Shown: one piece after another, positions 1-18,558 of the stretch | Layout: each line of letters opens with the position of its first letter | Position numbering within the stretch: the first letter of the stretch is position 1 | IMG/VR virus record: IMGVR_UViG_2875535316_000004 | Origin: an uncultured virus (IMG/VR IMGVR_UViG_2875535316_000004) | Lineage: Duplodnaviria; Heunggongvirae; Uroviricota; Caudoviricetes | Direction: 5' to 3' (one strand) | Length of the DNA stretch: 20,000 nucleotides | Notes under the pieces: generated by a model | What the model was told of the DNA's origin: nothing | Seen by the model: the letters and a program-made list of their open reading frames with translations, nothing else | Database searches by the model: none | Position numbers and translations under genes: made by a program

Positions 1-1942
1 CACCTTCATCAGCATGCTTTATTCATTGGAATACTTAGTTATGCATTTAAATGAAATGGCTTCAGGCACGATGCCGGGCGTATTAAATGACACTCTTGTT
101 ATGTTATCGGCATCGACCCTTTCCACTGATCCGCTATGGGATGGGCTCTGGGGAAAGGGTGAGCTATCTTGCGAGCCTGTTGACTTGAGTGTATTGAATT
201 ACTGCCCAATCGTTTATCACGACGACAAGCCTCACCCTCTGCTTTACATTCCAAGATTCTACCGAATTACTCGCATGAATGTAAAAATGCCAACCAATAC
301 TGGCGAAATAGCCCATGTAAACGAGCCTAGAGTCATAACAAATGATATCCGCTTAACGCAACTAATGTGTGAAACAGGCATTCGCCAGCACCATTTGATC
401 TGGTTGGATAGAGACGCGTATGACAAGTATGTCCCTGACAGTAAAAATCGACCTCTCGCTCCGCTGTACGTAAGCACCGACAAGGCTCACGGCCCTTGGA
501 GCGCAATTATTTCACGGTACGTCCTAGATTTATTGGGGCGACAACGCGATTGGTACGATAGCTGTTCGGATCCTAGTTTCGACGACAAGCTGTGGTATGG
601 AAATCAAAAGGACTCTCCATTTGGAATGCTAAGACCACTGTTCCGAACTCAACAATCTCCTGGATCTTGGACAAACTACCGCAGCTTTCGTCTGCTACTG
701 GTCGGCATGCAGTATCTTATCCGAATTCAGTTCAAGGACACCAAAACGCGAGAGCTGATTAAGTTTAAGTATGAACGAGGTATCCCCCCCACTTCAATCG
801 CACACCTTGAAATAGACGACCTCGCCAAGTTGTCACACTTAAAGCTAAATAGCGATATTACACCGCATGGACTTAGGGCCGGATTCGTGTCTGAAGCCAT
901 AAAATTCCTTCCGCCCTCCCTCATTGGACGGTACTTCACGGGGCAGAGTGAAAACCTCGTGTACTACTATCTACTCCTTCACGATGAAGGCGCGCTCAGC
1001 CATGACGAAATGCTATGCGAGATGCTAATGCGTAATCAAAGCAGGGTAATGGATGGGAATGCGCCACTAATGGCCAAAACCATTATTGAGCTCAACATGC
1101 GCTTACAGAAAGCCATTCTCACAAATCCAGACGAAGCTATTACAACGCATAGACTAATGAGTTTGTCACGCATCAAAAAAGCCCCTAACGGCCTTGATCT
1201 CATCAGAGCCAAAGATGTAACTGAGTTTGCCTTTAACGCCACACATATCTGCCCATTCAATAACACATGCCCTCAAGAAGTTATCCAAATGCTAGGGGCA
1301 ACGAATGCATGCGCTCTTTGCCCCTATGCCGTAAGAGGCGTCGAACACATTCCTGCTATCGGGGCTCAAAAAGACCAGTATAAGGAATTTATGGTAGGCA
1401 TTCTCACAATGATTCAGGAATTGCTTCGTCGAAAGCCGGATCAGCGAAGTGAGGAAGACATGGAAAAGCTTGAACGTGAGCACGATCATTATGCGCGTCA
1501 GGCCGTAATGCTTGAGGCCCTCGAGCTACAACTAATCGAAATGACTAATAACGGTCAAGCTAACGCTTTGATTGCGAAAAATGGTCAAGAAATAATCGGG
1601 CACTATAAAAAAATACAAATCGATTCTGACTCCAAGCTTTTGAAGAGGATCATTGATACTCAAAACTTCCCAGACCTTACCAGCCCCGACCTGGACTGCA
1701 GGCTTTCTGTGCTTCGGGGAACGTTGCTTATGTATCAAGGAGACATGAGAGAACATCTAAAAATAGGACAACATGATGATTTCACACCTTCCTCCAAGGC
1801 AGCCACTCTGATTTCAAGCCTAGTGCGAAATGAATCCATGAGCACGATGGAAATTTATAAGATCTGCGCATCCGCTGAGCAAATTTATCGAACTGAAATA
1901 AAACCAACCGCCGTAATCTCAAAATATTTGAGCGCAAGCTAA
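1..1942 (+). CDS. Large tyrosine recombinase/integrase (GmtZ/VPA1269-like architecture), 5'-truncated by the window
   Basis: The frame is open back to the window edge. Catalytic motifs: ETGIR (Arg), STDK (Lys), TPHGLR (HxxR), FTGQ...VYYY (Tyr). A C-terminal Cys cluster (CPFNNTC...CALCPY) is followed by a coiled coil. Confidence 0.75.
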   Translation, partial: TFISMLYSLEYLVMHLNEMASGTMPGVLNDTLVMLSASTLSTDPLWDGLWGKGELSCEPVDLSVLNYCPIVYHDDKPHPLLYIPRFYRITRMNVKMPTNTGEIAHVNEPRVITNDIRLTQLMCETGIRQHHLIWLDRDAYDKYVPDSKNRPLAPLYVSTDKAHGPWSAIISRYVLDLLGRQRDWYDSCSDPSFDDKLWYGNQKDSPFGMLRPLFRTQQSPGSWTNYRSFRLLLVGMQYLIRIQFKDTKTRELIKFKYERGIPPTSIAHLEIDDLAKLSHLKLNSDITPHGLRAGFVSEAIKFLPPSLIGRYFTGQSENLVYYYLLLHDEGALSHDEMLCEMLMRNQSRVMDGNAPLMAKTIIELNMRLQKAILTNPDEAITTHRLMSLSRIKKAPNGLDLIRAKDVTEFAFNATHICPFNNTCPQEVIQMLGATNACALCPYAVRGVEHIPAIGAQKDQYKEFMVGILTMIQELLRRKPDQRSEEDMEKLEREHDHYARQAVMLEALELQLIEMTNNGQANALIAKNGQEIIGHYKKIQIDSDSKLLKRIIDTQNFPDLTSPDLDCRLSVLRGTLLMYQGDMREHLKIGQHDDFTPSSKAATLISSLVRNESMSTMEIYKICASAEQIYRTEIKPTAVISKYLSAS

Positions 1943-1958
1943 GATTAAGGATAACACT

Positions 1959-2642
1959 ATGAAATCCTCGGATAAGTCTAGGTTTACGGCTTATATCAAC
2001 AGACGTACAGAGCACAATGAAAAGCTCCTGACTGTGGCGCTCCGCACCCTCGACCCAGAGAAGCACGATGATATAACTTCATACTGCAAAGCTCTGAGCT
2101 TGATAATTTCCGAACTGAGATTGGCAAAGTCGAGTGATGGGGGATCGCCATATCACGGCCGGCAAGTTCGCTCGCAAAGCTACACTACGTTGCTGCGCAA
2201 CCCTGCATATAGAAAATTGATTGAAGCCAAATTCTTTCAAGATGCACATCTGCCGACCGCTCCAATCAGCGAGGACATTGAATACTTGCACCTTGAAATC
2301 ACTCGACTCCAAGCCGAAAACAATCTACTGACAAACAAGGTGCTGCGCCTCGACTCGAAAAGCACTCACCAAGATATTGAAAACAATTACAGCACTGAAA
2401 CTCAACGACTTCAGCGCCAAGTACACGTCTTACTAAAAGCTTATAAAGGAGTCAGAATTAGTTCAAGAGGGGTTGTTGACGAGCGCTATGAAGACAAGCT
2501 GAACAGCAACTTGCTAGGACTTTATGGCATTTACGGACTAATCCTCACTCCGTCCGAGCTTAAAGAAATCGAAAGCGCTCAAAGGGAACTTCCCGAAGAT
2601 TTAAAAGTAAACCTAACCAAGTCTTTATCCCTCTTGCGCTAA
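1959..2642 (+). CDS. Integrase-associated coiled-coil protein (GmtX/TnpC-like position)
   Basis: 227 aa, 16 bp after the integrase, with SD AAGGA. Contains a TLLRNPAYRKLIE segment followed by a heptad coiled coil. Confidence 0.55.
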   Translation: MKSSDKSRFTAYINRRTEHNEKLLTVALRTLDPEKHDDITSYCKALSLIISELRLAKSSDGGSPYHGRQVRSQSYTTLLRNPAYRKLIEAKFFQDAHLPTAPISEDIEYLHLEITRLQAENNLLTNKVLRLDSKSTHQDIENNYSTETQRLQRQVHVLLKAYKGVRISSRGVVDERYEDKLNSNLLGLYGIYGLILTPSELKEIESAQRELPEDLKVNLTKSLSLLR

Positions 2643-4446: not shown

Positions 4447-5346
4447 TCAGCTGGGACTTTTATAGCCAGGGGCAAGCTTGGCAGTTTTAACACCATAGAG
4501 AGCCAGAGGGTCGCTCAACCAGAGTCGATATGCCTCGTCTGCAATGCTGTGATCTGCCGAGCAGTCCACGTGGTACTGCTGCAATACATACCCAGCCATA
4601 GCTGCACGCACACGCAGCTTGAGCACACCGTCAGGCATGTCGTAGTCCCGCATCATGATCTGAGCGCAATTTTTATCAGGATGCGGGACTAGGGGTAGAT
4701 CCAGCATCCGATTCCACTGGTCATCATTTTTGAGATTCTCTTTCTCCAGGGGCTTCTGCCCCTGCTGAATCTGGGCGGCTGTAATCCGAGCCAGCACGAA
4801 GTCGATGAAATCTTCGCGCTTCCTGTCGTAAGCCCTAACGTGCCAGCGCATACCATCACAGCTGATTGCGAAAGGCACAATTTCACGCTCAGATTCGCCC
4901 GAGGCCGACGTATAGCTGATTTTCACTACTCGGCTCAGGCTGATCGCTCGTGAAATCGGTGCAAGGATCTCTACTTTAGGCTGGCTGAGCAGCGAAACGG
5001 ACTCGTTGAGAATTAGCGGCTTCTCACCGTCCAGACTGTACCCGTATCCCTGCGTCAGAGCATAGAGCACTCGCTCAGTAGGATGAGCTACCAACGGGGT
5101 GAATGTTTCACGAATCACGTAAAGCTTGCTGACAGTGTCGAGCTCAGTATTGTGAGGAGCGATCTCACGATACTCAGCAAAATCTCGAGTAGCAGCCGCA
5201 GCGCCCAAACCGAATCGATCCATCAGGTCGTTACGCGAGACCACACCCGTGAAATACAGGCGAAAATCGATGTAAACCAGACGCTCCCGCTGTGCCCGGC
5301 TGTAGTCGCTCAAGTTACTCATGTCTACTCCGTCTTGCATTTCCAC
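4447..5346 (-). CDS. WYL-domain transcriptional regulator, BrxR/CapW-like (wHTH-WYL-WCX)
   Basis: N-terminal RERLVYIDFRLYFTGVVSRNDLMDRFG wHTH. WYL core REIVPFAISCDGMRWHVRAYDRKREDFIDFVLARI. The start may be the ATG at 5322. Confidence 0.9.
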   Translation of the reverse strand: MEMQDGVDMSNLSDYSRAQRERLVYIDFRLYFTGVVSRNDLMDRFGLGAAAATRDFAEYREIAPHNTELDTVSKLYVIRETFTPLVAHPTERVLYALTQGYGYSLDGEKPLILNESVSLLSQPKVEILAPISRAISLSRVVKISYTSASGESEREIVPFAISCDGMRWHVRAYDRKREDFIDFVLARITAAQIQQGQKPLEKENLKNDDQWNRMLDLPLVPHPDKNCAQIMMRDYDMPDGVLKLRVRAAMAGYVLQQYHVDCSADHSIADEAYRLWLSDPLALYGVKTAKLAPGYKSPS

Positions 5347-5403
5347 CGTCTTACCTATCTTGCACTCCGACCAAGAACCTGGCCGGTCGTTTCATCAGGG
5401 CTC

Positions 5404-5451
5404 ATCATAGCACACGATCGCTTGACCTAATCAAATTGATGATGATAGGCT
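5404..5451. promoter_or_regulatory. Overlapping divergent promoters with a central palindrome (candidate WYL operator)
   Basis: Plus strand: TTGACC (5422-5427)-N18-TAGGCT (5446-5451) with an extended TG. Minus strand: TGn-TATGAT (5412-5404). Palindrome ATCAA-A-TTGAT at 5430-5440. Confidence 0.5.
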
Positions 5452-5705
5452 TTGCGCACGGTGTCGATAGGCCCTAATTCATAGCACATGACGTGAGTCG
5501 CAATGGGCATGGATGGAGCAAATCAGCCAGAAACGAAAAAGCCGATCAAGTTCGCACCTTGACCGGCTTTAGGGAAAAGATATCTGAACAGGTTCCAGAT
5601 ATCTCTCGCGCTTTTGTTCAGAAAGCTCTGCGATGGTAGCCCTTGTGGCCTGCTGACGCAAGGGTAGCGAGTTCTGTGTTCGAGCCTTCTCAGAGGAGAC
5701 ACTCC

Positions 5706-5852
5706 ATGTCCCAACTCGAGATGTTCGATAAGCCCGAAGGCGAAGGCGAGGTCATCTACCGCATGACCATACGCACTCGCAACGGCAAGGTGATACGTCG
5801 CGCGAACGGCCAGCCGTTCCGCATCGTGATTCGCCCTAAAGCGGCCAATTGA
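5706..5852 (+). CDS. 48-aa basic small protein (MSQLEMFDKPEGEGEVIYRMTIRTRNGKVIRRANGQPFRIVIRPKAAN)
   Basis: Strong SD GAGGAGA at 5693-5699 before ATG 5706. A hairpin gggcac/gtgccc follows at 5876-5891. Confidence 0.75.
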   Translation: MSQLEMFDKPEGEGEVIYRMTIRTRNGKVIRRANGQPFRIVIRPKAAN

Positions 5853-5921
5853 TTTTGACCGCTTAACAGAGCTCGGGGCACGTTAGTGCCCTGCCCTCTC
5901 TCGCTACCTGATGAAAAATTC

Positions 5922-6341
5922 ATGAGCCTAGAGTTTTATGACCGCAAGGGTATGCCTGTCGCATACACCGATGACGACGAGCACATCTATTCATTTGATG
6001 GTCGTCCAGTCGCATACTTTTACAGTGACTCCGTTTACTCCTATCGGGGTCGGCACCTTGGATTCTTTAGGCGCGGGTTAATTCACGACAACGGTGGTCT
6101 TCTCGTCCTTATCACACCTGACTCAATGGGTGGCACGCTTAAGCCTCTCCTTCGTCCATTGCCTACAAAAGGCGCTCAACGAACGATTCCTACGAAGAAA
6201 ATTCGCAGATCTCTATCAGAATCGCCCGTCTTCCTAACCATTAGCTCGCGCATTTCTCCTCAGCAGTTTTTCCCTGAGGTATCAATCAAGCTGGTTTACT
6301 GCAGCAAGGCTCGCTTACCAGAATCGGCTTGCGCCCAGTAG
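5922..6341 (+). CDS. 4-fold beta-flower-like repeat protein
   Basis: Four repeats of the type FYDRKGMPVAY / IYSFDGRPVAY / VYSYRGRHLGF / IHDNGGLLVL, then a Pro/Lys/Arg-rich tail. Confidence 0.65.
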   Translation: MSLEFYDRKGMPVAYTDDDEHIYSFDGRPVAYFYSDSVYSYRGRHLGFFRRGLIHDNGGLLVLITPDSMGGTLKPLLRPLPTKGAQRTIPTKKIRRSLSESPVFLTISSRISPQQFFPEVSIKLVYCSKARLPESACAQ

Positions 6342-6389
6342 GACAGCAGCGGCTGGCCCTGCGCGGCGGGTATCTAAGAGGCGTTTGTA

Positions 6390-7004
6390 ATGGAAGACCT
6401 GGCGACAAAAATCATCCCACTGGTTCAGACGCTGATCCCTGGCTTTCTCACCGCCATGATTTTCTACTGGCTGGCAGATGTGAAAAAGCCTGGCCAGTTC
6501 GAACGCACAGTTCAGGCACTGATCGGTACCGGCCTGATAACCATGATGATCGCAGGTATCAAGGTAGGCCTGAGCTGGGTTGGTGAGCATTACTTCACGC
6601 TGGGTGAGTGGAGTCCCCAGGTAGAGAGTGTCTGGGGTATCGGTCTGGCGGTGGCGCTGGGTTTACTCCTGGCCTTCGCGTCAAACCATGACTACCTATA
6701 CCGGTTCGCGAGATGGCTGACTCTTACCTCTCGCTCCTCCTATCCGGAGTGGATTTATGCATTCCGCAAGCGGGAAGGCATGAGCGTCGTGCTGACCCTA
6801 CTCGATGGTCGTCGGCTGTTCGGGTATCCCGCAGTTTGGCCGACCGATCCTAAGGAAGGGCATTTTCTTATCACTCACCCGTGTTGGATGGACGAGAACA
6901 ACCAGTGGATAGAAACACCTGGCATTGAGAGCTATCTCATCGCCAACTGCGACGTCTACCTGATCGAATTTTTAGAAGAGGTAACCGAAAGTGAGCAACG
7001 ATAA
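6390..7004 (+). CDS. DUF6338-like membrane protein (3 N-terminal TM helices plus a soluble beta domain)
   Basis: SD GAGG. LIPGF motif, three hydrophobic helices, and C-terminal VVLTLLDGRRLFGYPAVWPTDPKEGHFLITHPCW. Confidence 0.7.
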   Translation: MEDLATKIIPLVQTLIPGFLTAMIFYWLADVKKPGQFERTVQALIGTGLITMMIAGIKVGLSWVGEHYFTLGEWSPQVESVWGIGLAVALGLLLAFASNHDYLYRFARWLTLTSRSSYPEWIYAFRKREGMSVVLTLLDGRRLFGYPAVWPTDPKEGHFLITHPCWMDENNQWIETPGIESYLIANCDVYLIEFLEEVTESEQR

Positions 7005-7131
7005 CCGACCTAAGCAGCATGTGCTTGAGCAGCGGGTTGCCAACGATGGCATGAACGTCAGCCCTCCGGCACCAACCAATATCCGCCCTAAAGCACCACC
7101 ACCAGCCCCGCCAAAAGCACCGAAAAAATAA
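6991..7131 (+). CDS. Pro-rich micropeptide 1 (46 aa: MSNDNRPKQHVLEQRVANDGMNVSPPAPTNIRPKAPPPAPPKAPKK)
   Basis: GTG start with SD GAGGT, overlapping the end of the DUF6338-like gene. Translated manually. Confidence 0.7.
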   Translation: MSNDNRPKQHVLEQRVANDGMNVSPPAPTNIRPKAPPPAPPKAPKK

Positions 7132-7140
7132 GAGGCCGAA

Positions 7141-7269
7141 ATGTACGAAGAAAGAGGTATATCGCCCCAACCGCGCCGGCCAAGTACCGGACAGTCAAGT
7201 CCATCTAAACCATTTGCCCAACGTCCAGCTACACCTCCGAAAGCCCCACCACCACCCAGCAAACGGTGA
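7141..7269 (+). CDS. Pro-rich micropeptide 2 (42 aa: MYEERGISPQPRRPSTGQSSPSKPFAQRPATPPKAPPPPSKR)
   Basis: SD GAGG immediately after the peptide 1 stop, ATG at 7141. Confidence 0.7.
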   Translation: MYEERGISPQPRRPSTGQSSPSKPFAQRPATPPKAPPPPSKR

Positions 7270-7274
7270 TCAGC

Positions 7275-7388
7275 ATGACCAATCAAACTGGCGGCAAGGT
7301 TCACGTCAATGACGGCATAAGCAAGCAGACAACCAGTCAGCGCCCGGCAGCACCACCAGCTGCCCCGCCGCCTCCTCCAAAGCGCTAA
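7275..7388 (+). CDS. Pro-rich micropeptide 3 (37 aa: MTNQTGGKVHVNDGISKQTTSQRPAAPPAAPPPPPKR)
   Basis: SD GGTGA overlaps the peptide 2 stop, ATG at 7275. Shares NDG[IM] and RPxAPP motifs with peptide 1. Confidence 0.7.
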   Translation: MTNQTGGKVHVNDGISKQTTSQRPAAPPAAPPPPPKR

Positions 7389-7550
7389 AGCTGTGAACAG
7401 AGGAAGAGGTGGTGTTTGGAATTAGGGACATGTGCCACGGATTGGCAAGCTTTCATGGCACTGATATCAGGCCCGGGAATCACACCGATGGTAGGATTAC
7501 GCGCCTCCTTCTGGACTCAGAAGTGTCTTTCCCCTGCGCTCGGAGCTCGC

Positions 7551-8372
7551 GTGAACAACCTAGACGTGCAGCAAATCCTTCCCTTCGTCATTACTGCAGT
7601 TAAGCAAGCTGGGCAGCTCCTAGCTCAGGAATACGTCCGCCCTAGTGGTCGCCGGGGCCACGGGGATAAGGCAGACATCGACCTTGAAATTGAGGAAACC
7701 CTCCGAGCCGAACTTCTGAAGCTCCTGCCATGCGATTGGTGGGGTGAGGAGACGGGGCATGTGTTAACGGGGAACAGCCTGTGCTGGGTGGTTGATCCGA
7801 ACGATGGCACTAGCGATTTTTTGCGTGGGCATGCGGGTTCAGCAGTGTCTGTCGGCTTGCTCCAGGAAAACTTGCCGGTACTAGGTGTTGTGCACGCACC
7901 GGTCACTGCCAATGGTGAGTCGGATTGCATTGCTTGGGCTGCCGGCATGGATCATCTGCTACGCAATGGCACGCCGATTCGGGTCGATCTTTCTCAACAA
8001 GATCTCGCCGACGGCAGCCTTGTAATGGTTAGCACTGCAGCGTCCGGTAAGCCCAACATCAATCGAGAGCTCTGCTCGCCTGGTGATTTCCACCCGATGC
8101 TGTCAATCGCTTACAGGTTGGCTCGGGTTGCTGCTGGGGATGCCGTATGTGGTGTTTCGCTCTATCCGGTGTCAGCTCACGACGTCGTTGCAGGTCATGC
8201 GTTGTTGATTGGCGCGAATGGGGTGCTGGTTGACGAACAAGGAGCTCCCATTCGCTACCAGAGTGAGGCAGAGATGCTTCGGGTATCCAACAGATGCTTC
8301 GGCGGAGCGCCAAGGGTATGTGCTGATCTGGTAGCTCGAGATTGGAGCAAGGTCTTTGCGAAAGATGCCTAA
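7551..8372 (+). CDS. Inositol monophosphatase family protein
   Basis: GEE and WVVDPNDGT metal-binding motifs, plus SAHDVVAG. Likely GTG start at 7551 after GGAG (ORF-track start 7416). Confidence 0.85.
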   Translation: MNNLDVQQILPFVITAVKQAGQLLAQEYVRPSGRRGHGDKADIDLEIEETLRAELLKLLPCDWWGEETGHVLTGNSLCWVVDPNDGTSDFLRGHAGSAVSVGLLQENLPVLGVVHAPVTANGESDCIAWAAGMDHLLRNGTPIRVDLSQQDLADGSLVMVSTAASGKPNINRELCSPGDFHPMLSIAYRLARVAAGDAVCGVSLYPVSAHDVVAGHALLIGANGVLVDEQGAPIRYQSEAEMLRVSNRCFGGAPRVCADLVARDWSKVFAKDA

Positions 8373-8456
8373 TGATGAGCAACAACCCTGTTAGCAGGAT
8401 CTGAATACCCTTTAAACCTAGCCTCTCGGATTTGTAGCGTGCCGCCTCTGGCGGAT

Positions 8457-8535
8457 GGCTGTCGTGAACCGAGCCCCGCCTGGCGGGTCTCGGCCCTGCC
8501 GGGCTTCCATCCTCACGCCTGCGCGCTCCGCTTGC
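8457..8535. repeat. Conserved structured repeat, copy A
   Basis: ggctgtcgtgaaccgagcc-[ccgcctggcgg]-gtctcggccctg..gggcttccatcctcacgcctgcgcgctccgcttgc. Confidence 0.85.
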
Positions 8536-8573: not shown

Positions 8574-8741
8574 ATGCTGACCATTATTCCCATGAGCCAA
8601 GCTCATAGGCGCCTCAGGCGCCTAGTAGCGCTAGTCGCCAAGGGACACACTTTTATCATCACCAAAAACGGCAAGCCGTTAGTATTGCTGGACGCGCCCA
8701 AACCATCCGATCAGCAAGAGCAGTAGCCAGGGAACTATGAG
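8574..8741 (+). CDS. Phd/YefM-like antitoxin (55 aa), orphan
   Basis: SD AGGAGAG. MLTIIPMSQAHRRLRRLVALVAKGHTFIITKNGKPLVLL matches the Phd N-terminal pattern (L..LV.....G..FIITK.GKP). Confidence 0.65.
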
Positions 8742-10435: not shown

Positions 10436-10593
10436 TCGAGGTATGTGGGTCAGCGCCGTCCTCGCCTAGCCAACGAGGCCGGAAGCACCCGCCCAGACAG
10501 CTTGAGCAAGCCTTTCTGCCCCATCAAGGGGACTATAAACCGTCGAATGGGGCATGGCAATCTGACTTCATGCTCCATTTGCTGGAGCGTTTT

Positions 10594-11040
10594 ATGCTGC
10601 CCCGCCATGCACTCGCGGCTGTCATCCGCGCTCTCCGAGCGATAAAGGGTGTGAGCCAGGCGGAGTTGCCTGCAGACCGCAAGCACCTCTACAAGCTCGA
10701 GGCCGGTCTTTCCAACATCAGTCTCGACATGCTCGTTCAACTGGCTCAATCGCTAGATGTAGCTCCGGCCACGCTCGTGGTTCTATTACAGGCAATTGAC
10801 CAGTCATCCACGCCCGATTCGATCATCGACAGGGTAAGGTCTGAGCTGGTGGATTTTGATCGACTGGGCGGGACTGCAGAATTGGGTCGACAGGTCGAAC
10901 TGGGTGGAGAGCAATCCAGGAACGCTGCTATTGAGGATCGAACAGCTGCGATTCAAGCGTGCAAAGCCAAGGGCCTCACTCAACGACAAACGGCTGCTGA
11001 ACTAGCCCTTTCGAAGTCTACCGTTGCTAGGGCGTGGTGA
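10594..11040 (+). CDS. XRE-family HTH regulator with a second C-terminal HTH
   Basis: IRALRAIKGVSQAEL...LYKLEAGLSNISLDMLVQLA (XRE) and KGLTQRQTAAELALSKSTVARAW (HTH). Confidence 0.8.
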   Translation: MLPRHALAAVIRALRAIKGVSQAELPADRKHLYKLEAGLSNISLDMLVQLAQSLDVAPATLVVLLQAIDQSSTPDSIIDRVRSELVDFDRLGGTAELGRQVELGGEQSRNAAIEDRTAAIQACKAKGLTQRQTAAELALSKSTVARAW

Positions 11041-11146
11041 CAGCAGATCGCGCACCGTTGCCTCACGGCAGCCGAACCTCAATGTCCATCTAGGTGGAGA
11101 CAGTGATGCTGTTGATCCATAGATGCGTGATGTATAGCCTTGTGGT

Positions 11147-11271
11147 GTAGGTGTCTGGCACCAAACCCTCAGCGCTGAGGAAATGACCTCTTTACCGGCA
11201 CACCCAAAGCCCGCCTGGAAGAGCCAGAGATCCCGAGCGACACCGCTGAACCGCCGATTGGCGGTTTTTTT
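11147..11271 (+). ncRNA. Candidate ~125-nt sRNA or attenuating leader upstream of the sirtuin
   Basis: Promoter TTGATC (11112)-N17-TAGCCT (11135). 5' GGTGTC pairs with GACACC (11239-11244). Internal palindrome cctcagcgctgagg. Ends at a terminator. Confidence 0.4.
11249..11271 (+). terminator. Rho-independent terminator
   Basis: aaccgcc-gatt-ggcggtt followed by a T run. Confidence 0.7.
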
Positions 11272-11302
11272 CTGCCTCACGCTACGCTCCCGGAGGGATG
11301 TC

Positions 11303-12067
11303 ATGACAATGGACGCTGCTGCACTCCAGCTTCGAAGCGCGCAACGCGTAGTGGTGTTTACGGGGGCGGGCGCGTCAGCTGAGAGCGGGATCCCGACCTT
11401 CAGAGAGGCATTGACTGGACTTTGGGAACGATTCGATCCGGCTCAGTTAGCGACCCCTGATGCTTATCGTGCGGATCCGTCCCTCTGTTGGGGCTGGTAT
11501 GAGTGGCGCCGTCGAAAAGTAGCTTTAGCGCAGCCAAATGCTGCACACCATGCGATAGCTGAGCTCGCCAGGCGTGTGCCTAAGCTGACAGTCGTCACGC
11601 AAAACGTCGATGACTTACATGAGCGTGGTGGAAGCCTTGAGGTGATCCATTTGCACGGCAGCCTGAACTCCCCCAAGTGTATAGACTGTGGGCTTACCCA
11701 TACACTTGCCCTTCCCTTGGATACCCTTCCCGAAGGTGGGGTTCGCCTGGAGCCGCCTCGATGCAGCGGATGCAATGGGTTTATTCGCCCTGGGGTAGTC
11801 TGGTTCGGAGAATTGTTGCCTGAGCAAGCTTGGAGCGACGCCTTGGAGGCAGCAGAGGATTGCGATTTCTTTCTATCGGTCGGGACTTCAGGGATCGTTT
11901 ACCCAGCAGCCGAGCTTCCGCTTCGCGCCCTGGGGAATGGCGCAACGGTCGTCCACGTAAACCCGGTGGTTTTCAATGTCAGCAGCCAGGAGCATTTTTT
12001 GGAGGGGGCTGCATCACACATGCTGCCAACCCTCCTCCGCCGTGCGTTCCCTGATGCGGGGATCTAG
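11303..12067 (+). CDS. cobB: NAD-dependent protein deacylase (Sir2/CobB-like)
   Basis: TGAGASAESGIPTFR, TQNVDDLHERGG, HLHGSL, two CxxC pairs, RPGVVWFGE and GTSGIVYPAA. SD GGAGG. Confidence 0.9.
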   Translation: MTMDAAALQLRSAQRVVVFTGAGASAESGIPTFREALTGLWERFDPAQLATPDAYRADPSLCWGWYEWRRRKVALAQPNAAHHAIAELARRVPKLTVVTQNVDDLHERGGSLEVIHLHGSLNSPKCIDCGLTHTLALPLDTLPEGGVRLEPPRCSGCNGFIRPGVVWFGELLPEQAWSDALEAAEDCDFFLSVGTSGIVYPAAELPLRALGNGATVVHVNPVVFNVSSQEHFLEGAASHMLPTLLRRAFPDAGI

Positions 12068-14055: not shown

Positions 14056-14300
14056 AATTACTCCTCGGATTCCAGCACCGTCTACCTCGTCGATGGGCAG
14101 AGCATAGTCGGCGGCTCACATGCATTCACTGGCCAGCAGAGTCGTGAGTGCAGTCGCCTAACGTGAACCAATTGCACCAAACAGTCTTTGGGCATTTCTA
14201 ACATTCGTGCAACGGGACTCTACCGGCCCAGATAGTGGCGCATAGCCACACACCAGCTACGCTGAGAGGCCATCCCCACCGCACACAGGGAAGTCCCGCC

Positions 14301-16070
14301 ATGCATGCGTTGAGCAAAATCCACATCCAAAACTTCCGCTCTTGCAATCAAGTCTTTTTGCCGCTGGGTGATTTCACCCCACTGGTTGGTCAAAACAATG
14401 CAGGGAAATCCACGATCCTCGACGCGATCAGGTTGGTGCTTGCGCCAAAGGCATTTGCAAAGACAGATGCAAACGACCCCAGCCAGCCGATCATCATCAG
14501 TGCATGCGTATCTGGCATCACTGAGGAACTGATCGAACAAATTCCTGAAGCCAAGCATCGAGCCGCGATTACCCCCTACTGCATCGGCGGAAACCTTTGG
14601 ATAAGGATTTCTGCATCAGGCTCAGCAAAGCCGACTTCGGAGGTCTGGGCAGACGCCAATCTAGACGAGCAAGGCCTGCCTGCGTCCTGGCGCTCCTATC
14701 CCACGGGGCTGCCGCAGGCTATTTCGGCATTGTTACCTGAGGCGTTGCACATCCGCGCCATGGACGATGTCCAGGAGGACTTAGGCAAAGGCAAAGCAGG
14801 CAGCACAATTCGAGGACTGCTGGACGAAATCATGGCGCCTATCCTCACCGCGCACCAAGAAGTACAGGACGCACTCACAGCGGTCAGGAACATCCTGGGC
14901 GCCGACGGCGAGAATAGATCCCCTCTCCTGACAGATTTTGATAACAGTGCCAACAGTGCCCTCTCCAGCTTCTTCCCTGGCTTGCTGCTGAACCTGGACG
15001 TACCATCTATCGACGTTAAGGAGTTCTTCAAAAGTGGTGATTTAAACGTGACCGATGAGATATCCGGTCAAACCAGGCGATTCGACACCCTAGGTAGCGG
15101 TGCACAGCGTGCGATCCAAATGGCATTGATACGGCTTCTGGCTGACATTAGAAAAACCCGCGATCAAGATCTTGCCCGTCGACTCCTACTGATCGACGAG
15201 CCCGAAATTTTTCTCCACCCGCAAGGTGTCAGGGGCCTCCGGGAAGCGCTCCAGATGCTTTCAAAATCTGGCTACCAAGTGGTGTTCACCACGCACTCGC
15301 CATTGATGGTAAGCAGGGATAACGCCCCAGATACGGTGATCGTTCGCAGGTCACGAGAGCACGGCTCGGAGGTTCGCGTCCCCATGGGTGCAGCGGTTGC
15401 GCAAGCTATCTCAGAGGCACAAGCCCAATCTCGAACTCTCTTTGAGCTTGGGAACATTGCTGAGATCTATTTTGCCGAAAAGGTGATTCTCTGCGAGGGC
15501 AAGACCGATCAGAGGCTACTACCTCTCATCTACGAAAAGCTCTATGGAGTAAGGCCTGAGCTCGAACGTATTTGCTTTGTTGCTCTCGGTAGCTGCACGT
15601 CCATTCCCAAGGGCTTTTCTGTACTGACAGCCATGGGCATCAAATGCGGTGTGATCGCAGATTTGGATTTCGCATTCACTCATGCCAGGGGCACCTGGCT
15701 ACCGAAGGAATGCGAAGAGATGACTAACGTCAAGTCTGTGCTTCAAACTGTTAGCCAAGCTGAAGGCTTCCAACTCGGTGGCCACGGGATGCCTCAGAAC
15801 TCCAGAAGCGGAACAGCGGCCGACTGCTGGGCTGCTTTTGCGAGACATACTGACGGCCAAGCACTCGCAAACGCTGCTCATGAAGCTATGAAAGAATTCA
15901 ATACCTGGGTCTGGCCAATGGGGTGCATTGAGGATGCCTTGAACATCACGGAGAAGGGAGAGGCAGCGATAATCGCTCAGGAAGACAGCATTAGGAGTTG
16001 GCAGCCAGCAGTGATTGATCAGGAGTATCCGGTTTTCCGTAGCACTCTGGACTGGATGCGAGCCATCTAA
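14301..16070 (+). CDS. OLD-family ATP-dependent nuclease (ABC ATPase plus TOPRIM)
   Basis: Walker A GQNNAGKST, signature LGSGAQR, Walker B LLLIDEPE, H-loop TTHSP, TOPRIM CEGKTD and ADLD. Confidence 0.9.
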   Translation: MHALSKIHIQNFRSCNQVFLPLGDFTPLVGQNNAGKSTILDAIRLVLAPKAFAKTDANDPSQPIIISACVSGITEELIEQIPEAKHRAAITPYCIGGNLWIRISASGSAKPTSEVWADANLDEQGLPASWRSYPTGLPQAISALLPEALHIRAMDDVQEDLGKGKAGSTIRGLLDEIMAPILTAHQEVQDALTAVRNILGADGENRSPLLTDFDNSANSALSSFFPGLLLNLDVPSIDVKEFFKSGDLNVTDEISGQTRRFDTLGSGAQRAIQMALIRLLADIRKTRDQDLARRLLLIDEPEIFLHPQGVRGLREALQMLSKSGYQVVFTTHSPLMVSRDNAPDTVIVRRSREHGSEVRVPMGAAVAQAISEAQAQSRTLFELGNIAEIYFAEKVILCEGKTDQRLLPLIYEKLYGVRPELERICFVALGSCTSIPKGFSVLTAMGIKCGVIADLDFAFTHARGTWLPKECEEMTNVKSVLQTVSQAEGFQLGGHGMPQNSRSGTAADCWAAFARHTDGQALANAAHEAMKEFNTWVWPMGCIEDALNITEKGEAAIIAQEDSIRSWQPAVIDQEYPVFRSTLDWMRAI

Positions 16071-16120
16071 GCGAGTAGACCCAGGTACTTCATCTAGAAA
16101 AGCCTCCTTTGCCGCACCGA

Positions 16121-16150
16121 TGATAAAGCCCCCATCAGGGGGCTTTATCA
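16121..16150. terminator. Probable bidirectional terminator between the convergent OLD and mvaT genes
   Basis: Perfect 13-bp stem tgataaagccccc-atca-gggggctttatca. Confidence 0.75.
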
Positions 16151-16168
16151 ATCTACCGGTGGAGCTTG

Positions 16169-16537
16169 TTACTGGGCGAGCCAGCCTTCCACCACGTCAG
16201 AACCGTATTTAGCTTTCCATTCCTTGAGCAGCTTGTGATTGCCGCCCTTGGTTTCGATGAGCTCGCCGTTGTGCGGGTTCTTATACAGCTTAACCTGGCG
16301 TGCACGACGCGGGGACTTTTCAGCTGCTGCAGGGGCAGCGGTACGACGGCTGGCTTGAGGATCCAGAATGTTGATGATGTCGCGCAAGCTATACCCATAC
16401 TTGGCCAATAGATCACGCAGTTTGGTCTCAAACTCGATCTCCGCTTGCAGCTCGGCGGATCCTTTCATCGCTTCCAGTTCGGCCAGCTGTGCGGCCAATG
16501 TTTGCTCAAGCTTACGGAATTCTGCGAGACGGGACAT
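16169..16537 (-). CDS. mvaT: MvaT/MvaU-family H-NS-like nucleoid protein
   Basis: MSRLAEFR...EIEFETKLRDLL and YKNPHNGELIETKGGNHKLLKEWK. Probably an accessory paralog. Confidence 0.9.
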   Translation of the reverse strand: MSRLAEFRKLEQTLAAQLAELEAMKGSAELQAEIEFETKLRDLLAKYGYSLRDIINILDPQASRRTAAPAAAEKSPRRARQVKLYKNPHNGELIETKGGNHKLLKEWKAKYGSDVVEGWLAQ

Positions 16538-16654
16538 ATGAAATCCTGAGGTTTTTAAAAGACAGGTGCATTCTAGCGATAAGTTTCGAGCTTAGCTTAG
16601 TTTTCTTAGCAGCAGTTAGGATTCCTGCTCACTCGGAATACTGATCGCCTTAAC

Positions 16655-17260
16655 CTACTGCCCCCTCGCTCGTCGTTCGAGCTCATCTAGACCCCGAACC
16701 CTCTGCTCCAAATCTTGATCTCTGTCCCACTCCCCCGGGCCCACCTTCTCTTTGGGCAAGCCGGCAAATTCAGCCAGTCGACTTATAATCTTGGACACCT
16801 CTAGGCCTAGAACTGCATACCCTCGTTGCCGAGTCCAAAAGAACTCACAATGATCGGGAGGGTCGTAATTGTACTCCTGGATCGCGCTGAGCTTACCGTG
16901 GAGCTTGTCTTGATAATCCGGGATGCGGATTATCGAATACATCAAATTCTTTGGAAGCAATTTCCAGTTGATGTCGATATCAAGCGGATTAAAGGCCGGT
17001 ACAGTCGTGACCGTTTTCCATTCGCCATCCTCCCCTGCAGGCTGCCCTTGCCAAGTTCCATCGTCCCTAGCGACTTCCAAGCATTCAGTGGCGAAACGGT
17101 CGAGATGGGAGATCAAGAGGATCCCCGCATACGATATATCTCGCTTGTCCTTCCGCCGAGTTGCGCCCCATTCCTTGGCCAAAACGAAAGCGTTGCCCAG
17201 CAATACACCAGTGATCCCAGCTACTGCTGAAATGATGGCCGAAACATTCCCTGCATCCAC
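16655..17260 (-). CDS. Hypothetical protein with a single N-terminal TM helix
   Basis: 201 aa, GTG start after SD GGAGG, hydrophobic segment VSAIISAVAGITGVLLGNAFVLA. Confidence 0.75.
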   Translation of the reverse strand: MDAGNVSAIISAVAGITGVLLGNAFVLAKEWGATRRKDKRDISYAGILLISHLDRFATECLEVARDDGTWQGQPAGEDGEWKTVTTVPAFNPLDIDINWKLLPKNLMYSIIRIPDYQDKLHGKLSAIQEYNYDPPDHCEFFWTRQRGYAVLGLEVSKIISRLAEFAGLPKEKVGPGEWDRDQDLEQRVRGLDELERRARGQ

Positions 17261-17430
17261 CCGCCACCTCCTGCTTATAGATCGCTATTGATGCATTCAC
17301 GATGAGTTGCCCTCATCACTTTCAGTAGTCAATACATCTCCCGCCTGAGCTATTGACCCTGAGCCATGGAGTCAAAACGGAACGCCGATAACTAAACCTA
17401 GAGTTTGATGTCCGACGTTGAGAGTGCCCG

Positions 17431-18558
17431 TCAAACTCGATCAGTGGTTGGAGTCTCAATCTCCCAAGGTGGTATGAAAATCCCTCCGTCCTGGACATCG
17501 CTATTGCTTGTTAGGGCTTCAATTTCGTTTATCGGCAAGGTGTCAGCGTAACGCTCGAGGACAGGAACGCGTACCAGCAAAGTGCGAAGACGAGCCTTGA
17601 ATCTTAAGCCGTCCGGGTGACCACAAGCTATGAGTCTACCGACTTTGCCCATAAGCCTGCGAACCTCCCGCTCAAGGTCAATTGACAGCGGGCCAGGCTC
17701 AGCGGCTGCCTGAAGTTCAATCCGCCTCACCATGGCGCGTATCAGCCTGCGCTCGTCCTTAGGAATACCTGGACTAGCCCTATCAACAGTCAATCCTGTC
17801 ACTGTGACAGCTCCCGGCTCACTCACCTCTAGGAGAGAATGACCGCGCCGACGGATATGGAGCTTACTGCGCTTCTGCTGACAACCCTTCTGGCTCAGCA
17901 TCCATGTGACAGCGGAAATTATACGGCTCTTAGCTTCGGGGAGAATTTCTGACTTGCTCGAGACGGTGATGTCATCCGCAAACCGGGAGTACGCGAGCCC
18001 CTCTGACCCCAACTGCTTCACCAATGCTGGCTCTACATTCCAGAAGACTAGATTGGCAAGGTAGCTACTTGTACTGGCCCCTTGTGGTACTTGCCCAGCA
18101 CGAGTCGTCAGCGCTGCCAGCAGGGATGAGACCTCACTCGAGAACCCAAAAAAACCGGAAAAAATTTCTTTCACATGTGCCGTGGTAATCGAAGGGAAGA
18201 AGTTTTTGATGTCCTGTAGAATGATGGATTTCGAGCCGGCATGTGACCGGGCATTTGAGTATATGCTACGCGGTTGCGCAACGTCTCGAATGCCACCATG
18301 GAGGTAGACCGGGTATTTCACTTTGATCAAGATACGATCAACGATTTTGCGTTGGATCGCCTTCAATGGCTCGAATGCATCAAACGTATCCCTAGGTGAG
18401 CCATCTCTTTTTTTCTGAGGGACATATCGATAAAGGTTTGAGCTTCGTTTGGCGATTGCAACGAGCAGAGCCTCTGGCTCAGCAAGCGCAAGAGACAGTG
18501 CTTTCAGGCTATAGATAGGACGATGAGGATAAAGGGGAGCTTCCATGGCCAGCCTCAT
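17431..18558 (-). CDS. Retron-type reverse transcriptase (Ec48-like clade)
   Basis: KKRDGSPR, retron region X NARSH (NAxxH), DIKNFF, PQGASTS, catalytic FADD (17971-17982) and region Y VTGL. Confidence 0.9.
   Translation of the reverse strand: MRLAMEAPLYPHRPIYSLKALSLALAEPEALLVAIAKRSSNLYRYVPQKKRDGSPRDTFDAFEPLKAIQRKIVDRILIKVKYPVYLHGGIRDVAQPRSIYSNARSHAGSKSIILQDIKNFFPSITTAHVKEIFSGFFGFSSEVSSLLAALTTRAGQVPQGASTSSYLANLVFWNVEPALVKQLGSEGLAYSRFADDITVSSKSEILPEAKSRIISAVTWMLSQKGCQQKRSKLHIRRRGHSLLEVSEPGAVTVTGLTVDRASPGIPKDERRLIRAMVRRIELQAAAEPGPLSIDLEREVRRLMGKVGRLIACGHPDGLRFKARLRTLLVRVPVLERYADTLPINEIEALTSNSDVQDGGIFIPPWEIETPTTDRV

What the first reader, a model, noticed from the sequence alone, without database searches (positions are those of the whole stretch)
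6390..7388. DUF6338-like membrane protein followed by an array of three paralogous Pro-rich micropeptides
Seen in sequence: three back-to-back ORFs (46, 42 and 37 aa), each with its own SD and tightly coupled, all below the ORF-track cutoff. They share a (ND/ER)G[IM][SN] motif and a C-terminal RPx[AT]PPxAPP..K[KR]-stop tail, while the DNA has diverged, which suggests selection at the peptide level. Inference: a dedicated membrane protein/peptide system. Options include processed or exported signal peptides, RiPP-like precursors with the Gly motif as cleavage site, Pro-rich antimicrobial-like peptides, or EF-P-dependent polyproline translation sensors acting as antitoxins for a membrane effector. 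I know of no characterised function.
Basis: partly seen in the sequence, partly recalled or inferred. Interest (0 to 1): 0.8.

Follow-up and report, generated by a model that had tools for sequence, protein, structure and literature searches.

The report
Membrane protein with proline-rich micropeptides
A small membrane protein is followed, here and in nearly every relative I examined in many bacterial groups and prophages, by one to four tiny unannotated proline-rich genes, which marks an undescribed two-part system of unknown, possibly anti-phage, function.

Summary
Window 6390-7004 encodes a DUF6338 protein (Pfam 56.4 bits, cut-off 26.5). Three coupled ORFs of 46, 42 and 37 aa follow, with shared Pro-rich tails.

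They are real genes:
- pN is far below pS against orthologues.
- In 78 related genome loci, 77 have such an ORF right after DUF6338, against 3 of 495 control genes.
- A peptide HMM hit 88 of 15,071 small ORFs, all directly downstream of DUF6338.
- The same holds in 66 of 66 readable IMG/VR prophage contigs and in Pfam-defined samples (15/15, 14/14, 4/4).
- The P. stutzeri orthologues were detected by mass spectrometry (PMC10433244), whose authors called them unconserved.

The conserved core is only DUF6338 plus peptides. Neighbours vary: prophage moron slots, Tn7 cargo, and positions beside Thoeris, IetAS, SIR2 and caspase genes. In the window itself: WYL, a beta-flower gene, Old and a retron.

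The AF2 model gives three TM helices plus a cytoplasmic Sm/LSm-fold domain (Z 10).

My best reading, which is inferred, is that the basic Pro-rich peptides bind and control a ring-forming membrane Sm-like protein in a mobile exclusion or abortive-infection module. Binding could not be tested here. RiPP and MscS membership are not supported.

The scan had not found this before.

The parts
6390..7004 (+). DUF6338 protein, 204 aa. It has three N-terminal transmembrane helices (model residues 2-28, 36-67, 76-99) and a C-terminal Sm/LSm-fold domain (about 117-197).
   Evidence: Pfam PF19865 matches at E 3.9e-15, 56.4 bits against cut-off 26.5. The AF2 model has pLDDT 82.7. Foldseek against the PDB gives Sm proteins with E down to 2.9e-5 and TMt about 0.8. 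VIA gives Z 10.0, rmsd 2.1, 74 residues aligned to 1loj_A. There are 90 homologues, mostly Pseudomonas.
6991..7131 (+). Micropeptide P1, 46 aa, GTG start inside the end of the DUF6338 gene (14-nt overlap). It carries the NDGMNVSPPAP core and a Pro-rich basic tail. This is the ancestral type found beside most relatives.
   Evidence: pN 0.13-0.16 against pS 0.69-0.71 versus L001-L003. Alignment A2 holds 30 first peptides from many phyla. It is the homologue of P. stutzeri SEP5, detected with 114 PSMs.
7141..7269 (+). Micropeptide P2, 42 aa (MYEERGISP... type), with AAGAGG 5 nt upstream of its ATG.
   Evidence: pN 0.08-0.09 against pS 0.58-0.61. The same peptide type is present in L001-L003, L005-L007, L009 and L010.
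7275..7388 (+). Micropeptide P3, 37 aa from its ATG (..NDGISKQTTSQRP.. type), with GGTGA 6 nt upstream.
   Evidence: pN 0.08-0.10 against pS 0.81-0.87. It is the homologue of P. stutzeri SEP2, detected with 44 PSMs.

Best explanation
This is a self-contained, horizontally mobile two-part module.

Part one is an inner-membrane protein with three TM helices (N-terminus out, C-terminus in). Its cytoplasmic domain has the Sm/LSm fold, a fold that normally assembles into 6- or 7-membered rings.

Part two is one to four translationally coupled cytoplasmic micropeptides. They are about 44 aa, carry a net charge of about +5, are 24% proline and have no hydrophobic segment.

I propose that the peptides bind the cytoplasmic Sm-like domain and keep the membrane protein inactive or assembled. 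The likely contacts are the peptides' (N/D)(E/D)G core and polyproline-II tail against the domain's conserved Trp/Pro-rich beta2-beta3 loop and acidic C-terminal tail. I further propose that the module works in lysogens and defence islands as a phage-exclusion or abortive-infection device. Hard-to-translate, probably short-lived polyproline peptides would then act as the labile inhibitor.

What is shown: the genes, their conservation and coupling, the fold, the genomic contexts, and translation of orthologues.

What is inferred: topology, ring formation, peptide binding (my odds about 0.6), a defence or exclusion role (about 0.4), and the labile-inhibitor logic (about 0.2).
For: Obligate pairing:
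- 77 of 78 genome loci against 3 of 495 control genes.
- 66 of 66 readable IMG/VR loci: 53 by filter and 13 by eye.
- Pfam-defined samples: 15/15 Pseudomonadaceae and 4/4 Bacteroidota, 14/14 Gammaproteobacteria.
- An HMM of the peptides hit 88 of 15,071 small ORFs in 1.08 Mb, all directly downstream of DUF6338.

Coupling: the first peptide overlaps the DUF6338 stop in 44 of 66 loci and starts within 20 nt in 20 more.

Only the pair is conserved. WYL, orf69 and Bflower recur only in L001-L003, and the IMPase gene only in L003.

The peptides are made and tolerated. P. stutzeri SEP1, SEP5 and SEP2 gave 85, 114 and 44 PSMs at 98-100% coverage, while the DUF6338 protein itself was not detected. That DUF6338 is 52% identical to the window's.

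Fold: Sm/LSm. A weak second model of a distant clade again ranks Sm proteins first.

The conserved loop GYP..WP..P is clade-specific, and it changes together with the peptide type.

Context:
- In the window: WYL, a Bflower gene (the Cernunnos domain), Old and a retron RT.
- Elsewhere: Thoeris, ThsB plus caspase, SIR2, PDC-S65, IetAS, MTases and a Tn7 element.
- Prophage moron slots in the tail, nin and Q-rusA regions.

Distribution is patchy: 16/301, 5/301 and 15/400 genomes over the Pfam cut-off.
Against: - No binding, oligomer or toxicity test could be run.
- DUF6338 and the peptides hit no PADLOC or PHROG model.
- tblastn found no match in 50,697 deposited phage records.
- In several Pseudomonas genomes the flanking genes are ordinary (LysR, dehydrogenases), which fits a non-defence accessory role equally well.
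- The order effector-then-inhibitor with coupling is unusual for toxin-antitoxin pairs.
- The peptides were abundant and intact in P. stutzeri, which does not suggest rapid turnover.
- A Planctomycete plasmid copy has no Pro-rich ORF downstream.
- Four loci carry a peptide variant with an acidic tail instead of a Pro tail.
Confidence: 0.4

Rival explanations
1. A membrane-tethered Sm/Hfq-like ring that binds RNA or a nucleotide, with the basic Pro-rich peptides as small accessory subunits. The role would be in the envelope, stress response or RNA localisation, not in phage defence.
For: The C-domain matches Sm, LSm and Hfq proteins, which bind RNA as rings. The peptides are basic (+5). Expression is constitutive in P. 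stutzeri under two growth conditions. Some Pseudomonas loci have ordinary chromosomal neighbours.
Against: Distribution is patchy, at about 2-5% of sampled genomes. The module is repeatedly placed in prophage moron slots, Tn7 cargo and defence islands. No RNA element is detected in the window.
Confidence: 0.15
2. The small ORFs act mainly through their translation. They would be polyproline, EF-P-dependent ribosome-stalling sensors that tune the operon's mRNA or the expression of DUF6338. The peptide products themselves would be by-products.
For: 81 of 88 peptides carry PPP or longer runs, 17 carry at least 5 and the longest run is 11. They are tightly coupled to DUF6338.
Against: They lie downstream of the only conserved gene, not upstream of it, and nothing is conserved after them. 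One DUF6338 clade has partner peptides of the INEG/GYQP type with no polyproline run. Non-proline motifs are conserved with low pN. The full-length peptides accumulate.
Confidence: 0.1
3. The peptides are exported products (a signal, a RiPP-like precursor or a Pro-rich antimicrobial peptide), and DUF6338 is their exporter or immunity protein.
For: A small membrane protein sits next to multiple variable peptide paralogues. The composition is cationic and Pro-rich.
Against: The peptides have no leader, signal or hydrophobic stretch (LipoP 'CYT' in Table S5). No maturase, peptidase or ABC transporter is conserved nearby. Pfam finds nothing in 30 peptides. The P. stutzeri peptides were found at 98-100% sequence coverage.
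Confidence: 0.08
4. The small ORFs are lineage-specific de novo or noise ORFs without function, as suggested for P. stutzeri in PMC10433244.
For: The authors found no tBLASTn hits beyond P. stutzeri at their thresholds of 60% coverage and 40% identity.
Against: Homologous peptides lie beside DUF6338 in Gamma-, Beta-, Alpha- and Deltaproteobacteria, Bacteroidota, Spirochaetes and Nitrospirae records. Selection is strongly purifying.
Confidence: 0.02

Closest known systems
DUF6338 operon with SEP1, SEP5 and SEP2 of Pseudomonas (Stutzerimonas) stutzeri ATCC 14405 (PMC10433244; I read passages of the main text and Table S5)
   Same: It is the same gene family. Its DUF6338 is 52% identical. Three downstream Pro-rich peptides are homologous to the window's P1 and P3 types. 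It gives direct mass-spectrometric proof that such peptides are made.
   Different: The paper describes one strain, calls the peptides unconserved and possibly de novo, and proposes no function. Here they prove to be a family-wide partner of DUF6338 in many phyla and in prophages.
Sm / LSm / Hfq proteins
   Same: The fold of residues about 117-197: an N-terminal helix plus five bent strands, with an Sm1-like V.L.L.DG..L.G pattern.
   Different: The domain is fused to three TM helices. Sequence identity is only 6-18%. Ring formation and RNA binding are untested. The profile search of PDB sequences found nothing significant (best E 1.4).
MscS mechanosensitive channels (architecture recalled: three TM helices, an Sm-like beta domain, a heptamer)
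   Same: The order of parts is the same: TM helices, a Gly/Ala-rich last helix, then a small beta domain.
   Different: No homology is shown. hhalign of A1 against an MscS alignment gives probability 0.45% and E 0.13. Pfam finds only DUF6338. There is no MscS C-terminal alpha-beta domain.
Small beta-barrel modules that read polyproline-II ligands (SH3 with RxxPxxP or PxxPxR; recalled)
   Same: The tails RPxxPPxxPP..K/R fit both SH3 ligand consensus patterns. The partner domain is a small SH3-like barrel with conserved Trp, Tyr and Pro residues.
   Different: This is an analogy only. The domain is Sm-like and not SH3, and no binding was tested.
Membrane-acting prophage exclusion, abortive-infection and toxin-antitoxin-like modules (RexAB, HK97 gp15, DicB; recalled, apart from the DicB abstract listed)
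   Same: A small inner-membrane protein encoded in prophage moron slots and defence islands, with a small protein partner.
   Different: There is no sequence or fold relation to any of them, no PADLOC model, and no tested function.
Pro-rich antimicrobial peptides (apidaecin, oncocin, Bac7; recalled, cited by PMC10433244)
   Same: Cationic and proline-rich.
   Different: These peptides are longer, poor in Arg, have no export signal, and are abundant inside a healthy producer.

Membership tests
Pfam DUF6338 (PF19865) | HMM score above the gathering threshold over most of the model | tested here: met
   56.4 bits against 26.5, profile positions 11-203 of 205.
DUF6338-plus-micropeptide module (defined here) | A small (about 35-60 aa) Pro-containing ORF on the same strand that starts at or just after the DUF6338 stop | tested here: met
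   The window has three such ORFs. Relatives: 77/78, 66/66, 15/15 and 4/4, 14/14.
Sm/LSm fold | An N-terminal helix plus a five-stranded bent beta-sheet that superposes on Sm proteins | tested here: met
   VIA Z 10.0, rmsd 2.1, 74 residues aligned. Foldseek found 108 matches at E<=0.001, and the listed ones are Sm, LSm or related proteins.
Sm/LSm fold | Assembly into hexameric or heptameric rings, and RNA binding | not testable with these tools
MscS family | Sequence or profile similarity to the MS_channel core | tested here: not met
   hhalign probability 0.45%. There is no PF00924 hit on the protein.
RiPP precursor cluster | A conserved neighbouring maturation enzyme, leader peptidase or exporter | tested here: not met
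   Neighbours differ from locus to locus. None of these is conserved.
Ribosome-arrest or EF-P sensor leader peptides | A stalling motif placed upstream of, or overlapping, the regulated gene | tested here: not met
   Polyproline is present in 81 of 88 peptides. The ORFs, however, lie downstream of DUF6338, no downstream gene is conserved, and the GYQP clade lacks polyproline.
Known anti-phage systems (PADLOC-DB 2.0) | A match to a system's protein model | tested here: not met
   No model matches DUF6338 or the three peptides.
Toxin-antitoxin or abortive-infection pair | Toxicity of one partner that the other neutralises | not testable with these tools
   This needs expression experiments.

The most novel reading that the evidence does not exclude
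This is a new class of prophage- and island-borne immunity. A ring of membrane-anchored Sm-like domains forms a latent pore or injection block. Polyproline micropeptides hold it shut, and their supply depends on EF-P-assisted translation. When infection disturbs translation the plug is lost, and the cell either excludes the phage or dies. The peptides would be the first bacterial polyproline ligands of an Sm-like domain.
Probability: 0.15. Interest if true: 0.9.

Novelty: categorically new. Interest (0 to 1): 0.75.

Why it matters
- It turns a domain of unknown function into a defined two-component system with a testable partner.
- It reveals a micropeptide family that annotation misses. RefSeq leaves the 45-aa ORF unannotated in an E. 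coli prophage. Only 26 relatives were gene-called among 1.84 billion representative proteins.
- It corrects a published claim that these peptides are strain-specific de novo genes.
- It offers a compact candidate for a new phage-exclusion or membrane-effector mechanism that exists in lambdoid prophages of E. coli and can be tested there.
- It is also an unusual natural case of conserved polyproline runs of up to 11 residues, and of an Sm-fold domain tethered to the membrane.

Tried and rejected
Binding therefore stays untested.
- No whole genome is held for the window.
- Megablast of 5400-8500 found nothing in the E. coli genomes, plasmids or phages.
- tblastn of DUF6338 found no deposited phage and one plasmid. 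That copy (Paludisphaera) sits after IetA-IetS and has no Pro-rich ORF.
- A search for longer, fused homologues found none (weak evidence). The peptide profile found no DUF6338-length fusion.
- MscS homology is not supported.
- The PDB sequence-profile search gave only a chance-level hit at E 1.4. The ESM Atlas gave only DUF6338 clusters. BFVD gave one uncharacterised full-length look-alike and phage Sm-like proteins without function.
- Pfam on 30 peptides and PHROGs on the module gave nothing.
- The promoter and terminator scan was at chance level.
- Rfam and tRNA scans of the window found nothing.
- RNA libraries: contigs of two biofilm metatranscriptome runs (X18, X19), 100% identical, cover 5419-5900, 5955-6235, 6447-6683, 6737-6981, 6999-7178 and 7516-7843. 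DNA carry-over cannot be excluded and contigs give no expression level, so I count this only as a hint.
- My first strict peptide filter missed 14 of 80 loci, and the viral filter missed 13 of 66. Reading the frames showed peptides in those loci.
- The second AF2 model (GYQP clade, 5 sequences) has pLDDT 61 and its Foldseek matches are all above E 0.001. This is suggestive only.
- Earlier scan notes found by words concerned other Pro-rich peptides in other organisms and did not bear on this case. The look-up by sequence found nothing.

Full report
**What is in the window.** Four ORFs lie on the + strand.
- DUF6338 is at 6390-7004 (204 aa).
- P1 is at 6991-7131 (46 aa, GTG start). It overlaps the DUF6338 stop by 14 nt.
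- P2 is at 7141-7269 (42 aa).
- P3 is at 7275-7388 (37 aa from its ATG).

Each peptide has an SD-like site upstream: GAGGT, AAGAGG and GGTGA. Pfam confirms DUF6338 at 56.4 bits against a cut-off of 26.5. The P2 and P3 tails share 12 of 15 residues, and 11 of those 12 use different codons.

**The small ORFs are genes.** Against the orthologous loci L001-L004 the sense frames show pN 0.08-0.16 and pS 0.58-0.87, and most differences fall at third codon positions (for example 4/7/26 for P1). The antisense frame that shares wobble positions also looks constrained, which is an expected artefact. It carries stops in the orthologues over P2 and four stops over P3, so it is not a conserved ORF.

A published proteogenomic study of P. 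stutzeri ATCC 14405 (PMC10433244; I read passages of the main text and Table S5) sequenced three Pro-rich small proteins directly behind that strain's DUF6338 gene. They gave 85, 114 and 44 PSMs at 98-100% coverage. The same genome region is locus L167. Its DUF6338 is 52% identical to the window's, and its peptides align with P1 and P3. So close homologues are translated and they accumulate.

**The pairing is a rule of the family.** A scan of one genome per species found 206 relatives, of which I kept 80 loci.
- A Pro-rich ORF of 25-80 aa starts within -60 to +100 nt of the stop of 77 of 78 DUF6338 genes with enough downstream DNA. The same holds for only 3 of 495 other ORFs of at least 90 aa in those loci (p 8e-91). 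The single miss, L070, fails only my regular expression.
- An HMM of 30 first peptides (A2) was run over all 15,071 small ORFs of 149 loci (1.08 Mb). It hit 88 ORFs, all immediately downstream of DUF6338 on the same strand. These cover 77 of 149 loci. The other loci carry more divergent peptide subtypes.
- In IMG/VR, 68 contigs encode a relative. Of the 66 with enough downstream DNA, 53 passed a filter, and reading the frames showed a peptide in the other 13.
- Samples defined only by the Pfam model gave the same answer: 15/15 Pseudomonadaceae and 4/4 Bacteroidota loci over the cut-off, and 14/14 Gammaproteobacteria.

Copy number runs from 1 to 4, with separate expansions in different clades (L005-L007; L125, L126, L129, L139). 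The first peptide overlaps the DUF6338 stop in 44 of 66 loci, 28 of them by a 4-nt overlap. It starts within 20 nt in 20 more.

**What the peptides look like.** The 88 peptides called in the genome loci have a median length of 44 aa, a net charge of +5 and 24% proline. None has a hydrophobic stretch, and 78 of 88 end with K or R in the last four residues. PPP or longer runs occur in 81 of 88, and the longest run is 11.

The window-type consensus is M..K..(NPPPP)..R..NEG.NVNPP.P..(R/K)P.PPPPPP..K. A second DUF6338 clade, the one that scores best against the Pfam model, is followed instead by peptides of the form ..INEG(Y/W).P..GYQP..GYQP..PP(G/K)(D/E)(E/R). These have no polyproline. Four loci keep the NG(M/L)NI.PPP core but have an acidic tail. 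The strict N(E/D/N/G)G motif is present in only 15 of 66 first peptides. The common P. fluorescens-group subtype has DGK instead. Pfam knows none of these peptides.

**What the membrane protein looks like.** AF2 with 29 homologues gives pLDDT 82.7. The model has helices at 2-28, 36-67 and 76-99, two short helices, and then five strands at 132-195. Residues about 117-197 superpose on Sm, LSm and Hfq proteins. Foldseek gives E down to 2.9e-5 with TMt about 0.8. VIA gives Z 10.0, rmsd 2.1 and 74 aligned residues, with 40 chains at Z>=8.

The most conserved soluble stretch is LLDGRRLFGYP..WP..P..G.F. It resembles the Sm1 pattern and places W150 and P151 in the beta2-beta3 loop. My reading of it as Sm1-like is from recall. 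In the GYQP clade this loop is replaced by a different, equally conserved sequence. A shallow second model of that clade (pLDDT 61) again ranks Sm proteins first, but only at E>=0.003.

The topology (N-terminus out, C-terminus in) is my inference from the charged loops. The architecture recalls MscS, but profile comparison gives probability 0.45%, so I do not claim homology.

**Context.** Only the pair is conserved. The window's WYL regulator, orf69 and beta-flower gene recur only in the closest loci L001-L003, and the IMPase-like gene recurs only in L003.

The window itself is a defence island. It holds a WYL regulator, a 4-fold beta-flower protein, a Phd-like ORF, an HTH plus SIR2 pair, an Old nuclease (E 1.5e-208), and PDC-S67 with a retron-type RT. 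PF21784, the beta-flower domain, is the domain of the integron-borne anti-phage system Cernunnos (bioRxiv 10.1101/2024.07.02.601686, section 7).

In 27 other genome loci the two flanking genes on each side vary. They include:
- Thoeris in Tn7 cargo (L007);
- ThsB plus caspase (L005);
- a SIR2 protein (L010);
- a PDC-S65 caspase (L017);
- IetA-IetS (L028, and again on the Paludisphaera plasmid);
- a NERD-type helicase and a PIN protein (L071);
- methyltransferases, MazF plus an integrase, and phage genes;
- in other loci, LysR regulators and metabolic genes.

In 34 IMG/VR loci the module sits in classic moron positions:
- between tail-assembly and minor-tail genes (L087, L096, L108, L127, L138);
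- in front of NinB (L095, L100, L109);
- on the opposite strand between a Q-like antiterminator and a RusA-like resolvase (L125, L126, L129, L139);
- beside methyltransferases.

An E. coli lambdoid prophage carries it too. RefSeq annotates the DUF6338 gene there but not the 45-aa peptide that overlaps its stop.

The family is patchy: 16/301 Pseudomonadaceae, 5/301 Bacteroidota and 15/400 Gammaproteobacteria genomes over the cut-off.

**Interpretation.** The shown facts are these:
- an obligate, coupled pair;
- cytoplasmic basic peptides that can adopt polyproline-II structure;
- a membrane-anchored Sm-like domain with a conserved Trp/Pro loop and an acidic tail;
- mobility, and prophage and defence-island contexts;
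- abundant peptides in a healthy cell.

The simplest account is that the peptides are ligands or subunits of the membrane protein (my odds 0.6). I also think the module is an accessory of mobile elements that acts at the membrane against incoming phage (0.4). A labile-plug, antitoxin-like logic is attractive but speculative (0.2).

The clade without polyproline, and the position of the peptides downstream of the only conserved gene, argue against a purely translational (EF-P sensor) role. The lack of any conserved maturase or exporter, and of any leader, argues against RiPP or exported-peptide readings. Conservation across phyla refutes the de novo reading of PMC10433244.

**Novelty.** I searched the paper library for DUF6338 (one paper), for PF19865 (none), for Sm-like with anti-phage and transmembrane (two unrelated WYL papers), and for proline-rich small proteins in prophage exclusion (nothing relevant among the 15 listed). 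Supplements of bioRxiv preprints were not open to me.

Apart from the single-strain proteomic report, I found no description of the pairing, of the Sm-like fold of DUF6338, or of any function.

Noticed in passing
window 4447-6341: A WYL regulator (4447-5346, minus strand) is divergent from a conserved small ORF (5643-5852, conserved part from residue 18) and a 4-fold beta-flower protein (5886-6341, PF21784, E 2.4e-24). The trio recurs in L001-L003. PF21784 is the domain of the anti-phage system Cernunnos. This may be a WYL-controlled Cernunnos-like unit separate from the DUF6338 module.
   Followed up: partly
window 7416-8372: An inositol-monophosphatase/CysQ-like gene (PF00459, E 1.9e-27, below all NCBIfam cut-offs) starts 28 nt after P3. 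It recurs only in L003, so it is not part of the core module. Its role in a defence island is unexplained.
   Followed up: partly
window 14235-18558: An Old-family nuclease (PADLOC Old, E 1.5e-208) is followed on the minus strand by a PDC-S67 protein (16655-17260) and a retron-type reverse transcriptase (17431-18558; RT_V at 9.8e-74). No Rfam retron RNA was detected.
   Followed up: no
window 8574-8726 and 10570-12067: A 50-aa Phd/YefM-like antitoxin ORF has no obvious toxin partner. An HTH protein is followed by a CobB-like SIR2 deacylase (NF001753, 275 bits).
   Followed up: no
window 2-2642: Two large ORFs (646 aa, open at the 5' end, and 227 aa) have no Pfam family. The second has only weak PADLOC hits (CARF_HEPN, HamA, E about 0.002).
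   Followed up: no
L028:663-4728 and L149:472-4717: IetA-IetS (AAA ATPase plus S8 protease defence pair) lies directly upstream of DUF6338 in a Rheinheimera genome (with a peptide) and on a Paludisphaera plasmid (238-aa DUF6338, no Pro-rich ORF). This may be a three-gene variant.
   Followed up: partly
L186:4609-4746: In an E. coli lambdoid prophage, RefSeq annotates the DUF6338 gene but not the 45-aa Pro-rich ORF that overlaps its stop. A 555-nt gap in the annotation follows.
   Followed up: yes
L004, L011: Two very short contigs (1141 and 438 bp) filed under Streptomyces carry DUF6338 that is 81-84% identical to the Pseudomonas-type window protein. They look like contamination of those assemblies.
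   Followed up: no
L026:4618-4782; L093, L094, L118: A peptide variant keeps the NG(M/L)NI.PPP core but ends in an acidic tail instead of the Pro-rich basic tail.
   Followed up: partly
L038:3447-3743: A 98-aa ORF that matches only the C-terminal half of DUF6338 (E 2e-24) lies just upstream of the full-length gene. It is a partial tandem copy.
   Followed up: no
control genomes: The Pfam DUF6338 model also matches Haloferax volcanii over the cut-off. I could not check whether archaeal members have partner peptides.
   Followed up: no
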